Of a stretch of 64,000 nucleotides of DNA, positions 17,431 through 44,266 are shown piece after piece. Under the pieces are notes generated by a model. It had not been told where the DNA came from. It saw only the letters and a program-made list of their open reading frames with translations, and ran no database searches. Both the position numbers and the translations under genes were made by a program. Every line of letters starts with the position of its first letter. Position 1 is the stretch's first letter. Source of the stretch: a virus; IMG/VR virus record IMGVR_UViG_3300045800_000023, positions 1,839-65,838 of that record; one strand, written 5' to 3'.

Positions 17431-17580
17431 TGTTGGAGGTAGGGATTGCACCTACACCATTGCTTTTTCTGGGTCAGTTTCAGATTACATTCTTGCAGCC
17501 GAAGCTGGGCGGTTGTCTTTACCTCTGACACTACTAGAGCAAGAGTAGCCCTTAAGCCGCTAGCAGCACTTCGGGTCTCC
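17431..17580 (-). ncRNA. ~150-nt tRNA-like RNA with partial acceptor stem and large insertion
   Basis: 5' GGAG pairs with 3' CTCC; CCG/CGG D-like stem; CTACT/AGTAG stem; T-arm GTAGG-TGCAATC-CCTAC. Confidence 0.4.
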
Positions 17581-17585
17581 GTTCG

Positions 17586-17666
17586 TTGGGAAGGTAGGAT
17601 TCGAACCTACGAAGCCGAAGCAACAGATTTACAGTCTGCCCCAGTTGTCCACTTTGGTACTTCCCA
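17586..17666 (-). tRNA. trnY: tRNA-Tyr(GUA)
   Basis: Cloverleaf, GCAGA-CTGTAAA-TCTGT, class II variable arm, TTCGAAT T-loop. Confidence 0.92.
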
Positions 17667-17674
17667 GTGACTTG

Positions 17675-17756
17675 CTCTGAGAGTAGGACTCGAACCTACA
17701 ATGTCTTTCGACGCACGGTTAACAGCCGTGTGGGTTGCCATTCCCCTCATCTCAGA
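17675..17756 (-). tRNA. trnN: tRNA-Asn(GUU) with an extended variable arm
   Basis: CACGG-CTGTTAA-CCGTG, G73, TTCGAGT T-loop, 14-nt variable arm. Confidence 0.88.
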
Positions 17757-17765
17757 ATATAGTTG

Positions 17766-17864
17766 GGCGCTAGGTAGGACTTGAACCTACAACGGTCGTA
17801 TTCGGACGAATTTTGACCATCCAGATTTTTCACTCTGGAGTGTTTACCCTTTCACCACTAGCGT
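17766..17864 (-). tRNA. Atypical tRNA-like gene, 8-nt anticodon loop GUGAAAAA (Phe-like), ~30-nt variable arm
   Basis: Acceptor, D and T arms present; CCAGA/TCTGG stem. Confidence 0.6.
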
Positions 17865-17874
17865 CATAATTTAG

Positions 17875-17976
17875 TGTTGGAAGAAGGATTCAAACCTTCA
17901 AGTCCGACCTTTTTAGGGGCTCTTTTCTGGACTCGGGGCTAAATGCCCCTAGCGTTTATCGTTTCGCCATTCCAAC
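17875..17976 (-). tRNA. Atypical tRNA-like gene (nominal UUU, A at position 33), 34-nt variable arm
   Basis: GTTGGAA/TTCCAAC acceptor, GCG/CGC D-stem, T-loop TTTGAAT. Confidence 0.55.
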
Positions 17977-17982
17977 ATGTTG

Positions 17983-18083
17983 TCCAAGGGGCAAGATTTA
18001 CACTTGCAAATTGTGGGCTATTGGTCCGGACCTATTCACCCACTCCGGTATCCCCGGCGCGTCTATAATTCCGCCACCCTCGG
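17983..18083 (-). tRNA. Atypical tRNA-like gene with shortened anticodon arm (CCGG-GGATA-CCGG), ~37-nt variable arm
   Basis: CCGAGGG/CCCTTGG acceptor, Leu-type D-arm, T-loop TGTAAAT. Confidence 0.5.
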
Positions 18084-18084
18084 T

Positions 18085-18157
18085 TGGTGCCGGGACCAGG
18101 ATTCGATACCTGGAACCACCTCATTTCATAGAGGCTGCTGACTTCGCATATCCCGGC
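18085..18157 (-). tRNA. Atypical tRNA-like gene with 8-nt anticodon loop (UAUGAAAU), 8-nt T-loop and encoded CCA
   Basis: GCCGGGA/TCCCGGC-A-CCA; GCCTC/GAGGT; CCAGG/CCTGG. Confidence 0.55.
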
Positions 18158-18166
18158 TATTTAGTT

Positions 18167-18376
18167 TTATTCAGTAACTTCTGGCGGAACAACTACTGTG
18201 ACCGGTGCCACCACGAATGCCGCCTTCTTTAGCTCTCCAAGGCGCTTCAGTGACATTCGCATACGATACTTTGAGAACAAAGCCTCGTTTACATCCTTTG
18301 CCGTTGCCCCTGTCTTAAAGGCAGCTGTTGCTTCTGCTTCTCGTTCTACTACAAGGGTCTTCTTAAGTCTTGCCAT
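18167..18376 (-). CDS. Small early hypothetical protein
   Basis: AAAGGA RBS; TTGACA-16-TATAAT promoter at 18425-18398. Confidence 0.7.
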   Translation of the reverse strand: MARLKKTLVVEREAEATAAFKTGATAKDVNEALFSKYRMRMSLKRLGELKKAAFVVAPVTVVVPPEVTE

Positions 18377-18397: not shown

Positions 18398-18425
18398 ATT
18401 ATACTATAGTTCTTCTAATTGTCAA
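18398..18425 (-). promoter_or_regulatory. Consensus sigma70-like promoter driving the small gene and tRNA array
   Basis: TTGACA-16-TATAAT. Confidence 0.75.
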
Positions 18426-40699: not shown

Positions 40700-41317
40700 A
40701 TGACAACTCCTGACAATACTAAACAGTGCTCTAAATGTAAACGAGAAAAACCTGTGTCCGAATTTCACAACACAAAAAGATCCAAGGACGGCAAGGCCTC
40801 CTGGTGTAAGGTGTGTATGGCTATTCGGTATCTGGAAAACAAGGATAAGGTCGCTCAAAAAAACAAGGAAAATTCAACCTCGATTTCTGTTAGAATGAAA
40901 GCTTGGAGGGCGGCCAATCGGTTAAAGATAAAAGAAAACAAGAAAAGATGGGACCAAGAAAACAAGAATTGGATAAACACTCAACAGAGAGAGCGCAGAG
41001 CCACGGACATAAACTTCAGGATAGCCGAATCATTACGCAAAAGAGTGTGGAAATCGGTAAGGAAAGGGAAAAGGGCTGGCTCTGCGATTAGAGACTGCGG
41101 GTGTTCTGTAGGGTTTCTGCGAAGTTATTTAGAATCTAAGTTCCTCCCTGGGATGACCTGGGACAATTGGGGGCCGAAAGGTTGGCACATTGACCATATC
41201 ACGCCACTGGTCGCCTTTGACTTGACAGAAAAAGACCAGTTTCTTGCAGCCTGCCATTACACTAATTTACAGCCTCTATGGTGGAAAGACAACCTTAGCA
41301 AGTCAGCAAAATTCTAG
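40700..41317 (+). mobile_element. Free-standing HNH homing endonuclease with N-terminal Zn finger, antisense to its operon
   Basis: CSKCK...CKVC; GCS...GMTWDNWG..GWHIDHI...HYTNLQPLW..DNLSK; late motif. Confidence 0.85.
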
Positions 41318-42402
41318 ACACAGCCCACAATCCGCATGTAAGAGTCTGTTGTTATTTTAGCGGAGGACAAAGCTTGAGTTACCGATGCCCCCGTTTTCCG
41401 CATCTGGAACAGAATCGACGAATAAGGATACGCGGTCGCGACTGAGGCAAATTCTTTTTGGGATATTCTATCCTTTATACTGTTGTAGGTCTTACCGATG
41501 GTCTCTACGGTATCCACATGTTTTTGTTGAATTTCTTCAAAAATATCCAGAAGAGTTGGGAACGACGATATGGCTATTTTTAGTTCACTATACTCGCCCT
41601 TGCGGATTACCTCGCACATGCGCTTCTTGGACAACGAGTCCTTGGCATGATGCAGCATAACGTAGGCCGGTGACTTGATTTTGACCCGGTTAAAGTGGCT
41701 GTCCACTACAACGAACCCCTCGTGCTCCAAAGGGTTGAGCCCCTCAGCCGCCTTGATGCAATCTTCAATAGAATTGAGGGGGTAGACCTTGACAGAATTG
41801 AAGGCTTCCGGTTGTAAGGATACAGAAACCTCCTTAAGGGTATTCTTGTTTCGTCCACCGATAAGGTGTAGGGACGCTTCTTTGTGGTCTACCACGACTC
41901 GGTTGAGAGGCCCGGTAAGCTCAAAGGCGTAAGAAAAATCTGTCCCCAGCCATTCTGTCTTGCACCCCTGCTTCTCCCAGGTTTTCCAAAACAATTCTTC
42001 AAAGGTCTTGCCGTAATCACCTACCTGGCCGCTTGCGTCTGGAGTGCCAGAGGTTGCGACGTGCCAATCGTCGTCATAGTAATACAGTTGACACAACGAT
42101 CCATCTTCTTTAGCCTGTACCTCAGCCGTAGACCAATCGATTTTGGCAGCGAGGGGCTCCCCATAGTTGAAGAACTTCCTGAAGGTATAGCAGATTACCT
42201 TCCAGTTGTCTTTTTCGTCCAGGATGATGCCTCGGGCCTCCTGGACAATTGGCTCCTTGAAGTCAGACTCGATTTGGCTATACTTGAACAAACAGAGCTG
42301 GTTATATCCAGAATGCCGCTTGCAGTCAATCGAATACAGCTCCTTGAGCTTTTCAATGCCGTTAGGCGTATTGCGCAAGAATTTTTGGATTTCGAGTTCC
42401 AT
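41314..42402 (-). CDS. rnl1: RNA ligase 1 (T4 Rnl1-like)
   Basis: EARGIIL, KFFNYGE, KEDGS, FELTGPLNRVVV, EGFVV, RVKIKSPAY. Confidence 0.9.
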   Translation of the reverse strand: MELEIQKFLRNTPNGIEKLKELYSIDCKRHSGYNQLCLFKYSQIESDFKEPIVQEARGIILDEKDNWKVICYTFRKFFNYGEPLAAKIDWSTAEVQAKEDGSLCQLYYYDDDWHVATSGTPDASGQVGDYGKTFEELFWKTWEKQGCKTEWLGTDFSYAFELTGPLNRVVVDHKEASLHLIGGRNKNTLKEVSVSLQPEAFNSVKVYPLNSIEDCIKAAEGLNPLEHEGFVVVDSHFNRVKIKSPAYVMLHHAKDSLSKKRMCEVIRKGEYSELKIAISSFPTLLDIFEEIQQKHVDTVETIGKTYNSIKDRISQKEFASVATAYPYSSILFQMRKTGASVTQALSSAKITTDSYMRIVGCV

Positions 42403-42425
42403 GTAGGTATCTTACTCTCATCTGG

Positions 42426-43175
42426 CTAGATGTCAATAATTTTCGGCTCCCAAAAAGCAGGTAGCTCGTGGATGTACCCAGCTGGATTAGAAACAATCCG
42501 GGTATTTCCAATCTTGTAGTCCACCGGTTCATGGCTGTGGCCGTGTACGAAGGCTAAAATATGACTGTCGGCAATCAGTTCATCATTGTCGAACCCAACG
42601 AAGAACCGGTTGATAGAGCTTCGGCGGTATTTTGGATGGACAGAGCTGGAGCTAGGCAAATGATGCGACACGACGATACAAGGTTCGTCTTTGATACCGT
42701 GCAACAAAATGTCGAATCTTTCGTTCCTGCGGTAAATCTCTGGCTCCAGGCCTTGGATATACCCAAAATCGTTCATCAAGTCTTTGTAGTACCTATGGTC
42801 TGGTGCATCTGGGAACCACAGGGTCCCTGCCAACATAGAAAGGTTTCCTAATGCTGGAATATCTTGGCTAGTCAGGATTTTGGCCCTGGAAGCAACTGTT
42901 AGGTTGGGTATTTTGTCAGGAAGTTTGTGAGCTTTGATGTCAACTTCAGTAATTGATGCACTGTAGCATTCGTGGTTACCCAGTACATAGAGAACATGCC
43001 TCGATTTGGCACAGATTTCTCTAAGATTTAGCTTCCACCTCCAATGGTCAGCTTGGGACAAATCCCCAGCAATGACGGTAAGGTCGCAATCGGGTACAAC
43101 CAACTGCGACACAAACTCTTCCCCACCGTCTCGGTGCATGTCCAGGTGGAGGTCGGAAAGTAGACAAATTTTCAT
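42426..43175 (-). CDS. Calcineurin-like metallophosphoesterase
   Basis: SDLH, AGD, GNHE, SHH, HGHSH. Confidence 0.9.
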   Translation of the reverse strand: MKICLLSDLHLDMHRDGGEEFVSQLVVPDCDLTVIAGDLSQADHWRWKLNLREICAKSRHVLYVLGNHECYSASITEVDIKAHKLPDKIPNLTVASRAKILTSQDIPALGNLSMLAGTLWFPDAPDHRYYKDLMNDFGYIQGLEPEIYRRNERFDILLHGIKDEPCIVVSHHLPSSSSVHPKYRRSSINRFFVGFDNDELIADSHILAFVHGHSHEPVDYKIGNTRIVSNPAGYIHELPAFWEPKIIDI

Positions 43176-43205
43176 GGGCCTACACTACCAGGATCTAAAG
43201 AATTG

Positions 43206-44090
43206 TCAATCCTTGATAATGCTCAAATGCTGCTTAAACAGCTTGGCCGTCCTGTTACCAATTTCCTTGCGTAGGGGCATGGTATCAACAACTTCGCCGT
43301 CAGATTCTCTTAAGACATCTTCTGTCATTCGAGCAATTACGTCCTTGGTCCTTTCGATGCTGATACTCTCGGTCTCTCCCATCTTGTCGAGTATGTGCTC
43401 AAGGCGCATCGGGGTAACCCATTCATCAATGATTAGAGCTACGCCTTCAAGAACCCGTCGTTTTTCCTCAGATTCAACGGTCCTTACAGACTTGGTCTCA
43501 CGAAATTCTTCCCGCTTGTGCTTACAAATGATGCGGGAATTTTCATCCGTACCATAGGAGAATTCCATCAAGGGCCTGGCGACGATACCTTCACGCAGCT
43601 TGTCATTGCCGCAGCCGTTCCTGATGGCCTGCACTGAAAAAGCATCGCGTTCTGCGTCAAGAGCTTCGACCGTGGCCGGTACCCTCTTGTAATGAACAAA
43701 CTCCAGGCCCAGGTTGTTGGCGTACTGTTCAGCTCTCGGGACCTCAAGCCACCTTTCGGCAACCCAGGCATCAAAAGCGATGAACTTTAGAGAAGGCCCA
43801 TAGGTAGCAGACATTCTCTGCATCTTGCCGCCATATGCTTCACCATACAAAGTGAACTTTGTGTAGCCGATGCTCTTGATTTTTTCAAGGAGTTCTTCCT
43901 GGTTGAACAGCTTCACGAATTCCTCGTACTTGGCCCCTCCAGAGAAGAAACGAAGCTGGCTTCCTTCGGGCTTTTCGACGTCATAAGAGACATGAGCGGA
44001 GGTTCCATGAATTTTTTCAAGAGCGTAGCATTCCTTGAACAGGAGGATGTTTTTTGACGCATAGAGATTTTTAATGTGTAAGTAACCCAT
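43206..44090 (-). CDS. rnl2: RNA ligase, Rnl2 family
   Basis: EKIHGTS, LYGEAYG, FIAFD, REGIVARP, ICKHK; start moved to ATG 44090 (AAGGAG RBS). Confidence 0.85.
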   Translation of the reverse strand: MGYLHIKNLYASKNILLFKECYALEKIHGTSAHVSYDVEKPEGSQLRFFSGGAKYEEFVKLFNQEELLEKIKSIGYTKFTLYGEAYGGKMQRMSATYGPSLKFIAFDAWVAERWLEVPRAEQYANNLGLEFVHYKRVPATVEALDAERDAFSVQAIRNGCGNDKLREGIVARPLMEFSYGTDENSRIICKHKREEFRETKSVRTVESEEKRRVLEGVALIIDEWVTPMRLEHILDKMGETESISIERTKDVIARMTEDVLRESDGEVVDTMPLRKEIGNRTAKLFKQHLSIIKD

Positions 44091-44116
44091 TGTGTCATAC
44101 TCCTTGATGCGGTGTG

Positions 44117-44191
44117 TAGAGGTGGTGAGAATTGCACTCACGAATTTCCCGATTATAGATCGGGAGCCTTCGACTACTTGGCCACACCTCA
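44117..44191 (-). tRNA. trnI: tRNA-Ile(UAU) with C33
   Basis: CCCGA-TCTATAA-TCGGG; A73; T-loop TGCAATT. Confidence 0.7.
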
Positions 44192-44192
44192 G

Positions 44193-44266
44193 TAACCCCG
44201 GCCAGAATTGCACTGGCAACCCCAAATTTAGGAAATTTGTACTCTATCTAATTGAGCTACGGAGTT
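44193..44266 (-). tRNA. trnR: tRNA-Arg(CCU)
   Basis: CAAAT-TTCCTAA-ATTTG; AACTCCG/CGGGGTT acceptor. Confidence 0.85.

What the first reader, a model, noticed from the sequence alone, without database searches (positions are those of the whole stretch)
17766..18157. Four consecutive tRNA-like genes with intact acceptor/T scaffolds but aberrant anticodon arms
Seen: two have 8-nt loops containing UGAAA, one has A33 with UUU, and one has a 4-bp/5-nt arm. Three carry 30-37-nt two-tier variable arms, and three lack the D-loop GG. They are co-transcribed with normal tRNA-Tyr and tRNA-Asn. Established: LeuRS and SerRS largely ignore the anticodon, 8-nt loops cause +1 frameshift suppression, and staphylococcal non-proteinogenic tRNA-Gly lose the D-loop GG. 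Inference: the repeated pattern with preserved stems argues against random decay. They may be decoys for anticodon nucleases or tRNA-sensing defences, non-ribosomal aminoacyl donors, or frameshift suppressors.
Basis: partly seen in the sequence, partly recalled or inferred. Interest (0 to 1): 0.7.

Follow-up and report, generated by a model that had tools for sequence, protein, structure and literature searches.

The report
Four mis-looped tRNA look-alikes in phage
A large peat/permafrost phage carries four real tRNA-shaped genes in a row, in one operon with two normal tRNAs; their bodies are intact but their decoding loops are the wrong size, so they probably mimic tRNAs rather than decode, and what they do is untested.

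Summary
On the minus strand, T1 (18157-18085), T2 (18083-17983), T3 (17976-17875) and T4 (17864-17766) sit 1-10 nt apart, directly upstream of tRNA-Asn and tRNA-Tyr. A perfect sigma-70 consensus promoter lies upstream and no internal promoter or terminator was found. Each folds unaided into a cloverleaf (z -2.7 to -3.7, better than the two real tRNAs).

Only the anticodon arm is aberrant:
- T1 and T4 have 8-nt loops containing UGAAA.
- T2 has a 4-bp stem with a 5-nt loop.
- T3 has CAUUUAG (A33), which can close to a 5-nt loop.

The missing D-loop GG is not a sign of decay. In 137 tRNAs of this phage group it always co-occurs with a changed T-loop, including in tRNAs with canonical anticodons.

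T2 has one homologue in a relative. Of 24 comparable pairs, 6 changed on both sides and none is broken.

Best reading (about 0.4): maintained, non-decoding tRNA mimics, probably tied to host tRNA-cutting defences, since the phage also carries RNA-repair ligases. Rivals are young pseudogenes (0.25), odd but working decoders (0.2) and frameshift suppressors (0.05).

No four-base target site and no aminoacyl-transferase gene was found. This scan has noted similar aberrant phage tRNA look-alikes on other DNA.

The parts
18398..18425 (-). Consensus sigma-70-type promoter (TTGACA-N16-TATAAT, 12 of 12) that drives the 69-aa gene and the RNA array.
18167..18376 (-). 69-aa gene of unknown function. It is the first gene of the transcription unit and ends 10 nt before T1. 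It is 54% identical to L071:1905-2117.
18085..18157 (-). T1: a class I tRNA look-alike. Acceptor GCCGGGA/UCCCGGC, A73 and an encoded CCA. The D arm has 3 bp and a 7-nt loop without GG. The anticodon loop is 8 nt (UAUGAAAU) and the T-loop is 8 nt (UAUCGAAU).
   Evidence: cloverleaf minimum-energy fold, z -3.71. In strain X4, CCA reads CCG.
17983..18083 (-). T2: a class II (Leu-like) tRNA look-alike. The anticodon arm has 4 bp and the 5-nt loop GGAUA. The variable arm is about 31 nt in three tiers. The T-loop is UGUAAAU and the discriminator is A73.
   Evidence: z -3.10. Homologue L071:2669-2760. The 5' 30 nt are 90% identical to Caulobacter phage CcrBL9 tRNA-Leu.
17875..17976 (-). T3: a class II tRNA look-alike. 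The loop is CAUUUAG (A33, UUU), or a 5-nt loop if C32-G38 pairs. The variable arm is about 34 nt. The T-loop is UUUGAAU and the discriminator is A73.
   Evidence: Rfam tRNA 39.3 bits; (z -3.66)
17766..17864 (-). T4: a class II tRNA look-alike. The anticodon loop is 8 nt (GUGAAAAA). The variable arm is two-tiered and about 27 nt. The D and T loops are canonical. A1 and C72 are mismatched, and the discriminator is C73.
   Evidence: Rfam tRNA 36.6 bits; (z -2.71). The nearest tRNA is L117 tRNA-Leu(AAG), which also sits directly before a long-armed tRNA-Asn.
17674..17756 (-). tRNA-Asn(GUU) with a canonical anticodon loop but an unusual hairpin in the variable arm.
17585..17666 (-). tRNA-Tyr(GUA), canonical, class II as in bacteria.
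17439..17545 (-). 3' end of the unit. A sequence block is shared with L071:2872-2996 and carries a hairpin of variable length. It is followed by a T-arm-like hairpin (17455-17439) whose stem covaries with the L071 copy.

Best explanation
T1-T4 are genuine tRNA-derived genes whose tRNA body is kept by selection but whose anticodon arms lie outside decoding geometry. They are transcribed from a strong early-type promoter in one precursor with tRNA-Asn and tRNA-Tyr.

Because the acceptor stem, discriminator and D/T elbow are intact, they should be cut out by RNase P and the 3' processing enzymes, and should fold into an L shape like their neighbours. This step is inferred.

T1 looks Phe-derived. 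T2-T4 use the class II (Leu-like) chassis of this phage group. With loops of 5 or 8 nt, A33, or a Watson-Crick 32-38 pair, they are unlikely to read codons normally.

The most likely role is tRNA mimicry in the conflict over host tRNAs. They present a normal tRNA body and bait-like loops (UGAAA twice, UUU once) to proteins that recognise tRNAs, above all anticodon-arm nucleases of host defence systems. They would either occupy such proteins or escape being cut. The mimic or decoy step is an inference and is not shown.
For: Structure:
- All four fold unaided into cloverleaves with better z-scores than the real Asn (-2.08) and Tyr (-1.60).
- About 80 core pairs show a single terminal mismatch.

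Genomic setting:
- Spacers are tRNA-array-like at 1-10 nt.
- There is one consensus promoter and no internal signals.

Elbow:
- The GG-less D-loops of T1-T3 come with changed T-loops. The same holds in 32 of 32 GG-less tRNAs of this group, many with canonical anticodons.

Conservation:
- T2 has a syntenic homologue in a phage whose flanking 69-aa protein is only 54% identical.
- Of 24 comparable pairs, 18 are unchanged, 6 changed on both sides and 0 are broken.
- Both copies lack GG, and both have a 5-nt loop in the minimum-energy fold.
- Strain X4 shows 4 changes in 392 nt of the array, none of which breaks a pair.

Recurrence of design:
- UGAAA sits in an 8-nt loop on two unrelated bodies (T1 and T4).
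- The loop pattern C-A-NNN-A-G occurs in both T3 and L071a.
- Further mis-looped class II look-alikes occur in distant relatives (L039:8928-9023, L052:10157-10269).

Context:
- Rnl1-type and Rnl2-type RNA ligases and a metallophosphoesterase lie beside the second tRNA cluster. This is the toolkit phages use against anticodon nucleases.
- Phage tRNAs are documented counter-measures to tRNA-cutting defences (PMC10264068, PMC11464382, PMC11555353, PMC13056530).
Against: - Only one homologue was found, and only for T2. Its variable and T arms differ so much from T2 that an internal swap between tRNA genes could mimic covariation.
- The slot is variable. Relatives with 68% identical ligase (L073, L074) have no array there.
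- No homologue of T2, T3 or T4 was found in IMG/VR. T1 was not scanned for, and CM R1 hit no copy outside the window and L071 in the 149 loci searched.
- Divergence from strain X4 is patchy, so the low change in the array is not clearly selection (P 0.096 against the milder flanks).
- No experiment shows that a phage tRNA-like RNA acts as a decoy.
- Expression and processing were not shown here.
- The four loops differ from one another, as decay would also produce.
Confidence: 0.4

Rival explanations
1. They are young pseudogenes. The slot is a high-turnover tRNA cassette site, and T1-T4 are duplicated or imported tRNA genes that lost their anticodon loops and have not yet been deleted.
For: - Each of the four anticodon arms is aberrant in a different way.
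- The slot differs among relatives. L071 has one element, while L073 and L074 have none and carry a metallophosphoesterase gene there.
- In strain X4 the tRNA-Tyr is heavily changed and 131 nt are inserted behind it, which shows cassette turnover.
- No homologues were found in IMG/VR.
- The encoded CCA of T1 is not conserved.
Against: - All helices are intact while the loops changed. Decay would also hit stems.
- Folding z-scores are better than those of the real tRNAs.
- T2 and L071a keep every pair across a divergence at which the neighbouring protein is 54% identical.
- Two unrelated bodies share UGAAA in an 8-nt loop.
- The phage keeps about 400 nt of them behind its strongest-looking promoter.
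Confidence: 0.25
2. They are working but unorthodox decoders. T1 and T4 would read Phe codons with GAA in an 8-nt loop. T3 would read Lys codons with UUU and A33. The loops would have been remodelled so that host anticodon nucleases no longer cut them.
For: - The triplets sit where an anticodon should: U-GAA-A in T1 and T4, and UUU-A37 in T3.
- L071a has a 17-nt arm of canonical size, read by ARAGORN as CUA.
- No canonical tRNA-Phe or tRNA-Lys is present in the 66-kb fragment, while Phe and Lys codons are common.
- A natural 8-nt loop that reads triplets exists in yeast mitochondrial tRNA-Thr(UAG) (PMC7609411).
- Phage tRNAs with loop mutations that evade nucleases have been described (PMC10264068).
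- tRNA-Lys(UUU) is the usual nuclease target (PMC13056530, PMC11464382).
Against: - A33 and a Watson-Crick 32-38 pair are essentially absent from working tRNAs (established knowledge).
- T2 has no possible anticodon.
- T4 combines a Leu-like body and C73 with a Phe anticodon, and T3 combines a Leu-like body with a Lys anticodon. Charging would therefore be ambiguous.
- T1 also has a truncated D arm and an 8-nt T-loop.
- Only 39% of the genome is available, so canonical Phe and Lys tRNA genes may lie elsewhere.
Confidence: 0.2
3. T1 and T4 are +1 frameshift suppressors, or four-base decoders of UUUC or UUCA, that switch on a phage gene.
For: - Both have 8-nt anticodon loops, as in classical suppressor tRNAs (sufD, SufB2; 10.1101/2020.12.31.424971).
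- Earlier notes of this scan proposed such switches in other phages. These are leads only.
Against: - No pair of ORFs in +1 relation joined at TTTC or TTCA was found in the 66 kb.
- In-frame TTT followed by C occurs 67 times (79 expected). TTC followed by A occurs 101 times (96.5 expected). An efficient four-base reader would therefore damage the phage's own proteins.
Confidence: 0.05
4. They are dedicated aminoacyl donors for a non-ribosomal reaction, such as Leu/Phe transfer, cyclodipeptide synthesis or cell-wall bridging, and are kept off the ribosome by their loops.
For: - The bodies look Phe-like (T1) and Leu-like (T2-T4).
- LeuRS ignores the anticodon (established knowledge).
- Staphylococcal cell-wall tRNA-Gly is a precedent.
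Against: - No Leu/Phe-transferase, cyclodipeptide synthase or FemAB-type gene was found in the fragment.
- The GG-less elbow is shared with ordinary tRNAs of the group, so it does not mark a special class.
Confidence: 0.03

Closest known systems
Phage tRNAs with anticodon-loop changes that escape host tRNA nucleases (mycobacteriophage C1 tRNAs, PMC10264068; T5 tRNA-Lys versus PARIS, PMC11464382; T5 tRNA-Tyr versus retron PtuAB, PMC11555353)
   Same: They are encoded in phage tRNA arrays and have a normal tRNA body. The changes are concentrated in the anticodon loop. The phage also invests in tRNA repair.
   Different: The known cases keep a 7-nt loop with U33 and still decode. T1-T4 have 5-nt or 8-nt loops or A33. 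No nuclease target is known for this phage or its host.
Phage T4 RNA C and RNA D (species 1 and 2), stable RNAs of unknown function in the T4 tRNA cluster (from my own knowledge; not checked in a paper here)
   Same: They are non-decoding RNAs co-transcribed and processed with phage tRNAs, have tRNA-like ends, and their function is unknown.
   Different: No sequence relation was tested. T1-T4 keep a complete cloverleaf, including an anticodon-arm hairpin.
Class II elongator tRNA-Leu within Rfam RF00005
   Same: - T2-T4 have a 7-bp acceptor, a 3-bp D stem, a long variable arm and a 5-bp T stem, with A73 in T2 and T3.
- The best outside hits of a model built from T2-T4 and L071a are ARAGORN-called tRNA-Leu genes.
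   Different: The anticodon loops are not 7 nt or lack U33. The variable arms are two to three times the usual length. T4 has C73.
+1 frameshift-suppressor tRNAs (sufD, SufB2) and yeast mitochondrial tRNA-Thr(UAG), all with 8-nt anticodon loops
   Same: T1 and T4 have 8-nt anticodon loops.
   Different: No matching four-base site was found. T1 and T4 carry further departures in their bodies.
YrlA-type bacterial and phage Y RNAs (Rfam RF02553)
   Same: They are non-coding RNAs that mimic the tRNA elbow and end, and they also occur in phages.
   Different: There is no Rfam hit and no Ro60/TROVE gene in the fragment. Y RNAs close with a long Ro-binding stem rather than a 7-bp acceptor with a discriminator.

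Membership tests
Canonical elongator tRNA (Rfam RF00005) | Score at or above the Rfam gathering threshold (29 bits) | tested here: inconclusive
   T3 scores 39.3 bits and T4 36.6 bits, so both pass. T1 and T2 are not reported even at E<=10.
Canonical elongator tRNA (Rfam RF00005) | 7-bp acceptor stem with discriminator, and a 5-bp T stem | tested here: met
   Acceptor 7 of 7 and T stem 5 of 5 in T1-T3. T4 has 6 of 7 (A1 and C72 mismatched) and 5 of 5.
Canonical elongator tRNA (Rfam RF00005) | 5-bp anticodon stem closing a 7-nt loop with U33 and a purine at 37 | tested here: not met
   T1 and T4 have 8-nt loops. T2 has 4 bp and a 5-nt loop. T3 has A33 and a pairable C32-G38.
Canonical elongator tRNA (Rfam RF00005) | D-loop G18G19 pairing with T-loop positions 55 and 56 | tested here: inconclusive
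   The standard form occurs only in T4. T1-T3 have the alternative GG-less D-loop with a changed T-loop. That combination is seen in 32 of 32 GG-less tRNAs of this phage group, including ones with canonical anticodons.
+1 frameshift-suppressor / four-base-decoding tRNA | 8-nt anticodon loop | tested here: met
   T1 has UAUGAAAU and T4 has GUGAAAAA.
+1 frameshift-suppressor / four-base-decoding tRNA | A gene that needs the matching four-base codon | tested here: not met
   No +1 ORF junction at TTTC or TTCA was found in the 66 kb. In-frame TTT-C is not avoided. Only 39% of the genome is held.
Non-ribosomal aminoacyl-donor tRNA (staphylococcal tRNA-Gly type) | A partner aminoacyl-tRNA-dependent transferase | tested here: not met
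   PF03588, PF16715 and PF02388 are absent from the fragment.
Non-ribosomal aminoacyl-donor tRNA (staphylococcal tRNA-Gly type) | Aminoacylation together with exclusion from EF-Tu or the ribosome | not testable with these tools
   This needs charging assays.
YrlA / Y RNA (RF02553) | Match to the Rfam model, and a Ro60 (TROVE) partner | tested here: not met
   No Rfam match at E<=10. No TROVE domain in the fragment.
Anti-defence tRNA decoy (proposed kind, no described family) | Binding to, or protection from, a tRNA-targeting nuclease | not testable with these tools
   Only context is available: RNA ligases of the Rnl1 and Rnl2 types and a metallophosphoesterase at 41314-44225.

The most novel reading that the evidence does not exclude
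This phage lineage builds purpose-made tRNA decoys. These are full tRNA bodies that carry Phe-like and Lys-like anticodon sequences in deliberately mis-sized loops. They would be made at high level early in infection and would bind and neutralise anticodon-arm nucleases of host defence systems. That would be an RNA-based anti-defence mechanism not yet described.
Probability: 0.2. Interest if true: 0.8.

Novelty: new variant of a known kind. Interest (0 to 1): 0.5.

Why it matters
Phage tRNA genes are now seen as weapons against host defences that cut tRNAs. Every proven case so far is a working tRNA that simply replaces the cut one. If T1-T4 are maintained yet cannot decode, phages also use the tRNA shape itself, as bait, inhibitor or something else.

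Standard annotation (ARAGORN, and Rfam for two of the four) misses such genes. The wider result matters for annotation too. In this phage group a missing D-loop GG goes with a changed T-loop in ordinary tRNAs, so it should not be read as a sign of a broken gene.

Tried and rejected
The contigs of the closest ligase relatives (85% and 76% identical) could therefore not be fetched directly.
- Neighbour-protein scans of IMG/VR gave only distant relatives.
- The single metagenome scan gave one relative with the slot filled (L071) and two with a different filling (L073, L074).
- blastn of the elements against all loci found nothing.
- Pattern scans of IMG/VR for T2, T3 and T4 gave 0 hits.
- Covariance model R1 run over five whole related phage genomes gave one ordinary hit.
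- blastn of T1-T4 against phage records gave only a weak tRNA-Leu match for T2. Against E. coli genomes there was none, so the Phe origin of T1 rests on my memory of E. coli tRNA-Phe.
- ARAGORN's intron readings, such as T3 as a UUA suppressor with a 17-nt intron, were rejected as forced.
- A resemblance of the 3' half of T1 to L071:2782-2824 (score 29) is not above chance.
- RNAalifold on MAFFT pairs misaligned the arms, so I compared helices by hand.
- RNA run X17 holds two 151-nt contigs over T1-T3 at depth 2-2.7. These may be DNA, and the uncovered parts show nothing.
- Searches of the fragment for a CCA-adding enzyme, TROVE, Leu/Phe-transferase, CDPS and FemAB were negative.
- Literature searches found no description of such RNAs.

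Full report
**What the window is.** The window is most of a 65,981-base IMG/VR virus record that CheckV rates 39% complete. It carries phage genes such as a baseplate J-like giant protein, an ATP-dependent DNA ligase and a DUF3310 protein. Public runs that hold this DNA come from permafrost and peat.

**The observation.** Read on the minus strand, 18157-17585 is a tight array of six tRNA-shaped units separated by 1-10 nt: T1, T2, T3, T4, tRNA-Asn(GUU) and tRNA-Tyr(GUA).
- Default ARAGORN calls only the last two.
- The Rfam tRNA model also passes T3 (39.3 bits) and T4 (36.6 bits) over its 29-bit threshold, but does not reach T1 or T2.
- Relaxed ARAGORN finds all four.
- Folded with no constraint, each of the four gives a clean cloverleaf as its minimum-energy and centroid structure. 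The z-scores are -3.71, -3.10, -3.66 and -2.71, against -2.08 and -1.60 for the real Asn and Tyr.
- A 12-of-12 consensus promoter lies at 18425-18398, ahead of a 69-aa gene that ends 10 nt before T1. No minus-strand promoter or terminator follows until the promoter of the next gene at 17423-17395. The six units therefore belong to one transcription unit.

**What the elements derive from.** I built a covariance model (R1) from T2, T3, T4 and the homologue described below.
- Outside its own members, its best hits are genes that ARAGORN calls tRNA-Leu in distant relatives (L117, L015, L039, L052, L138).
- Global alignment against 128 tRNAs of related phages puts T4 nearest to tRNA-Leu, and T2 and T3 among Leu and Ser.
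- The 5' 30 nt of T2 are 90% identical to the tRNA-Leu of Caulobacter phage CcrBL9.
- In L117, tRNA-Leu(AAG) sits directly before a long-armed tRNA-Asn, as T4 does here.
- T1 is class I. Its acceptor, A73 and UGAAA resemble E. coli tRNA-Phe as I remember it, which is an inference.

**The missing GG is not decay.** I parsed D and T loops in 137 tRNAs, comprising the relatives' tRNAs, this window's five tRNAs and T1-T4.
- 73 have GG and a UUC-type T-loop.
- 32 lack GG, and all 32 also have a changed T-loop such as UGCAAYU, UUAGAAU, UUUGAAU or AGCGUAA.
- None lacks GG while keeping UUC (Fisher p 1e-13).
- The GG-less set includes tRNAs with canonical 7-nt loops for Arg, Val, Lys, Gly, Cys, Leu, Phe and Gln. 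It also includes the window's own tRNA-Ile(UAU) and tRNA-Arg(CCU).

T1-T3 therefore carry the alternative elbow that is normal in this group. For example, the UUUGAAU of T3 is also the T-loop of tRNA-Arg(GCG) in L033 and L058. What sets T1-T4 apart is the anticodon arm, the very long variable arms, and the 8-nt T-loop of T1.

**Relatives.** I reached relatives through the neighbouring ligase.
- L071 has a ligase 77% identical and a 69-aa protein 54% identical. It keeps the same slot and holds one element, L071:2669-2760, which ARAGORN reads as a 93-nt tRNA with anticodon CUA.
- This element is the homologue of T2. The acceptor, D arm and outer anticodon stem are nearly identical.
- Helix by helix, of 24 comparable pairs 18 are unchanged, 6 changed on both sides and none is broken. 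The six are one in the acceptor, two in the T stem and three at the base of the variable arm.
- It also lacks GG. Its minimum-energy fold has a 6-bp stem with a 5-nt loop. Its loop CACUAAG has the same C-A-NNN-A-G pattern as T3.
- Caveat: its variable and T arms differ so much from those of T2 that an internal exchange between tRNA genes could produce the same picture.
- L073 and L074 (68% ligase identity) have about 200 nt of spacer and a metallophosphoesterase gene in the slot instead.
- No copy of T2, T3 or T4 was found in IMG/VR or in five whole related genomes.

**A strain variant.** Contigs of run X4 cover the whole stretch with 33 differences. Four of them fall in the 392 nt of T1-T4:
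- a change in the D-loop of T4;
- the CCA of T1 becoming CCG;
- a change in the T-loop of T1;
- U10-A22 of T1 becoming U10-G22.

None breaks a pair. The tRNA-Tyr, in contrast, has 11 changes, and 131 nt are inserted behind it. The array changes less than the rest of the stretch (P 3e-5). Against the milder flanks alone it does not (P 0.096), and divergence is patchy. I count this as consistent with constraint but not as proof. It also shows that the encoded CCA of T1 is not conserved.

**Tests of the proposed functions.**
- Four-base decoding: no pair of ORFs in +1 relation is joined at TTTC or TTCA. In 64 predicted genes, in-frame TTT followed by C occurs 67 times against 79 expected. TTC followed by A occurs 101 times against 96.5 expected. 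An efficient four-base reader would therefore hit the phage's own genes.
- Non-ribosomal donors: no Leu/Phe-transferase, cyclodipeptide synthase or FemAB gene is present in the fragment.
- Y-RNA-like: there is no Rfam match and no TROVE gene.
- Defence context: the window encodes an Rnl1-type RNA ligase, a metallophosphoesterase and a second RNA ligase next to its other tRNA cluster. Papers show that phage tRNAs counter tRNA-cutting defences, and that tRNA-Lys(UUU) is a favoured target (PMC10264068, PMC11464382, PMC11555353, PMC13056530).

**Weighing.**
- Against plain decay: every helix is intact, folding is better than in the real tRNAs, T2 and L071a keep all pairs, the designs recur (UGAAA in 8-nt loops on two unrelated bodies, and C-A-NNN-A-G twice), and the genes sit behind a consensus promoter.
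- For decay: the four loops differ from one another, the slot turns over, and homologues are nearly absent.
- For odd decoders: the triplets sit where anticodons should, and no canonical Phe or Lys tRNA is present in the fragment. However, A33, a Watson-Crick 32-38 pair, the anticodon-less arm of T2 and the mixed identity signals speak against this.

I therefore favour maintained, non-decoding tRNA mimics (0.4). A link to host tRNA nucleases is the most likely purpose, but it is untested.

**Earlier notes of this scan.** Similar aberrant tRNA look-alikes have been recorded in other phages. I used those notes as leads only.

Noticed in passing
window 17674-17756 (-); L117:7359-7445: tRNA-Asn(GUU) carries a hairpin in its variable arm (83 nt in all), although Asn tRNAs are normally class I. 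A distant relative has the same feature (87 nt), also directly after a class II tRNA.
   Followed up: partly
137 tRNAs of the ligase-related phages; window 44116-44266 (-): A GG-less D-loop always goes with a changed T-loop (UGCAAYU, UUAGAAU, UUUGAAU or AGCGUAA). This held in 32 of 32 cases (Fisher p 1e-13), including the window's tRNA-Ile(UAU) and tRNA-Arg(CCU). It points to an alternative tRNA elbow that is common in this phage group.
   Followed up: partly
window 17439-17545 (-); L071:2872-3010: A sequence block downstream of tRNA-Tyr is shared with L071. Inside it, a UUCG-capped 4-bp hairpin here corresponds to an 8-bp hairpin in L071. A T-arm-like hairpin follows (GUAGG/CCUAC here, CCAGG/CCUGG in L071). 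It may be another small RNA or the terminator of the unit.
   Followed up: partly
window 17580-17667, strain in run X4: In a strain about 3% divergent, tRNA-Tyr has 11 substitutions within 34 nt, a 7-nt deletion lies next to it, and 131 nt are inserted behind it. T1-T4 and Asn are almost unchanged.
   Followed up: no
L039:8928-9023; L052:10157-10269; L052:8177-8295; L117:5769-5843: Distant relatives hold further mis-looped tRNA look-alikes:
- an 8-nt loop AAGGACAA;
- a loop CAACUAA with A33;
- a 32-nt insert in a D-loop;
- a 'tRNA-Phe(AAA)' with C33.
ARAGORN also reports 6-nt-loop genes in L039 and L052.
   Followed up: partly
L074:753-1465; L073:690-1390: In relatives with 68% identical ligase, the array slot holds about 200 nt of non-coding sequence and a Metallophos_2 phosphoesterase gene. 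In the window, a phosphoesterase instead sits in the RNA-ligase island beside the other tRNA cluster.
   Followed up: partly
window 17864-17865 and 17766-17767 (-): T4 has an A1-C72 mismatch, while the base before it (G-1) could pair with C73. This arrangement recalls the extra G-1 of tRNA-His and is unexplained.
   Followed up: no
L070:300-800: A near-identical relative of L071 carries an extra ORF of about 170 codons (L070:292-804), absent from L071, between the DUF3310 gene and the ligase gene. I did not run it against a family library.
   Followed up: no
window 41314-44225 (-): An Rnl1-type RNA ligase (PF09511), a calcineurin-like phosphoesterase and a second RNA ligase (PF09414) lie directly downstream of the tRNA-Cys/Arg/Ile cluster. 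No polynucleotide kinase was looked for.
   Followed up: partly
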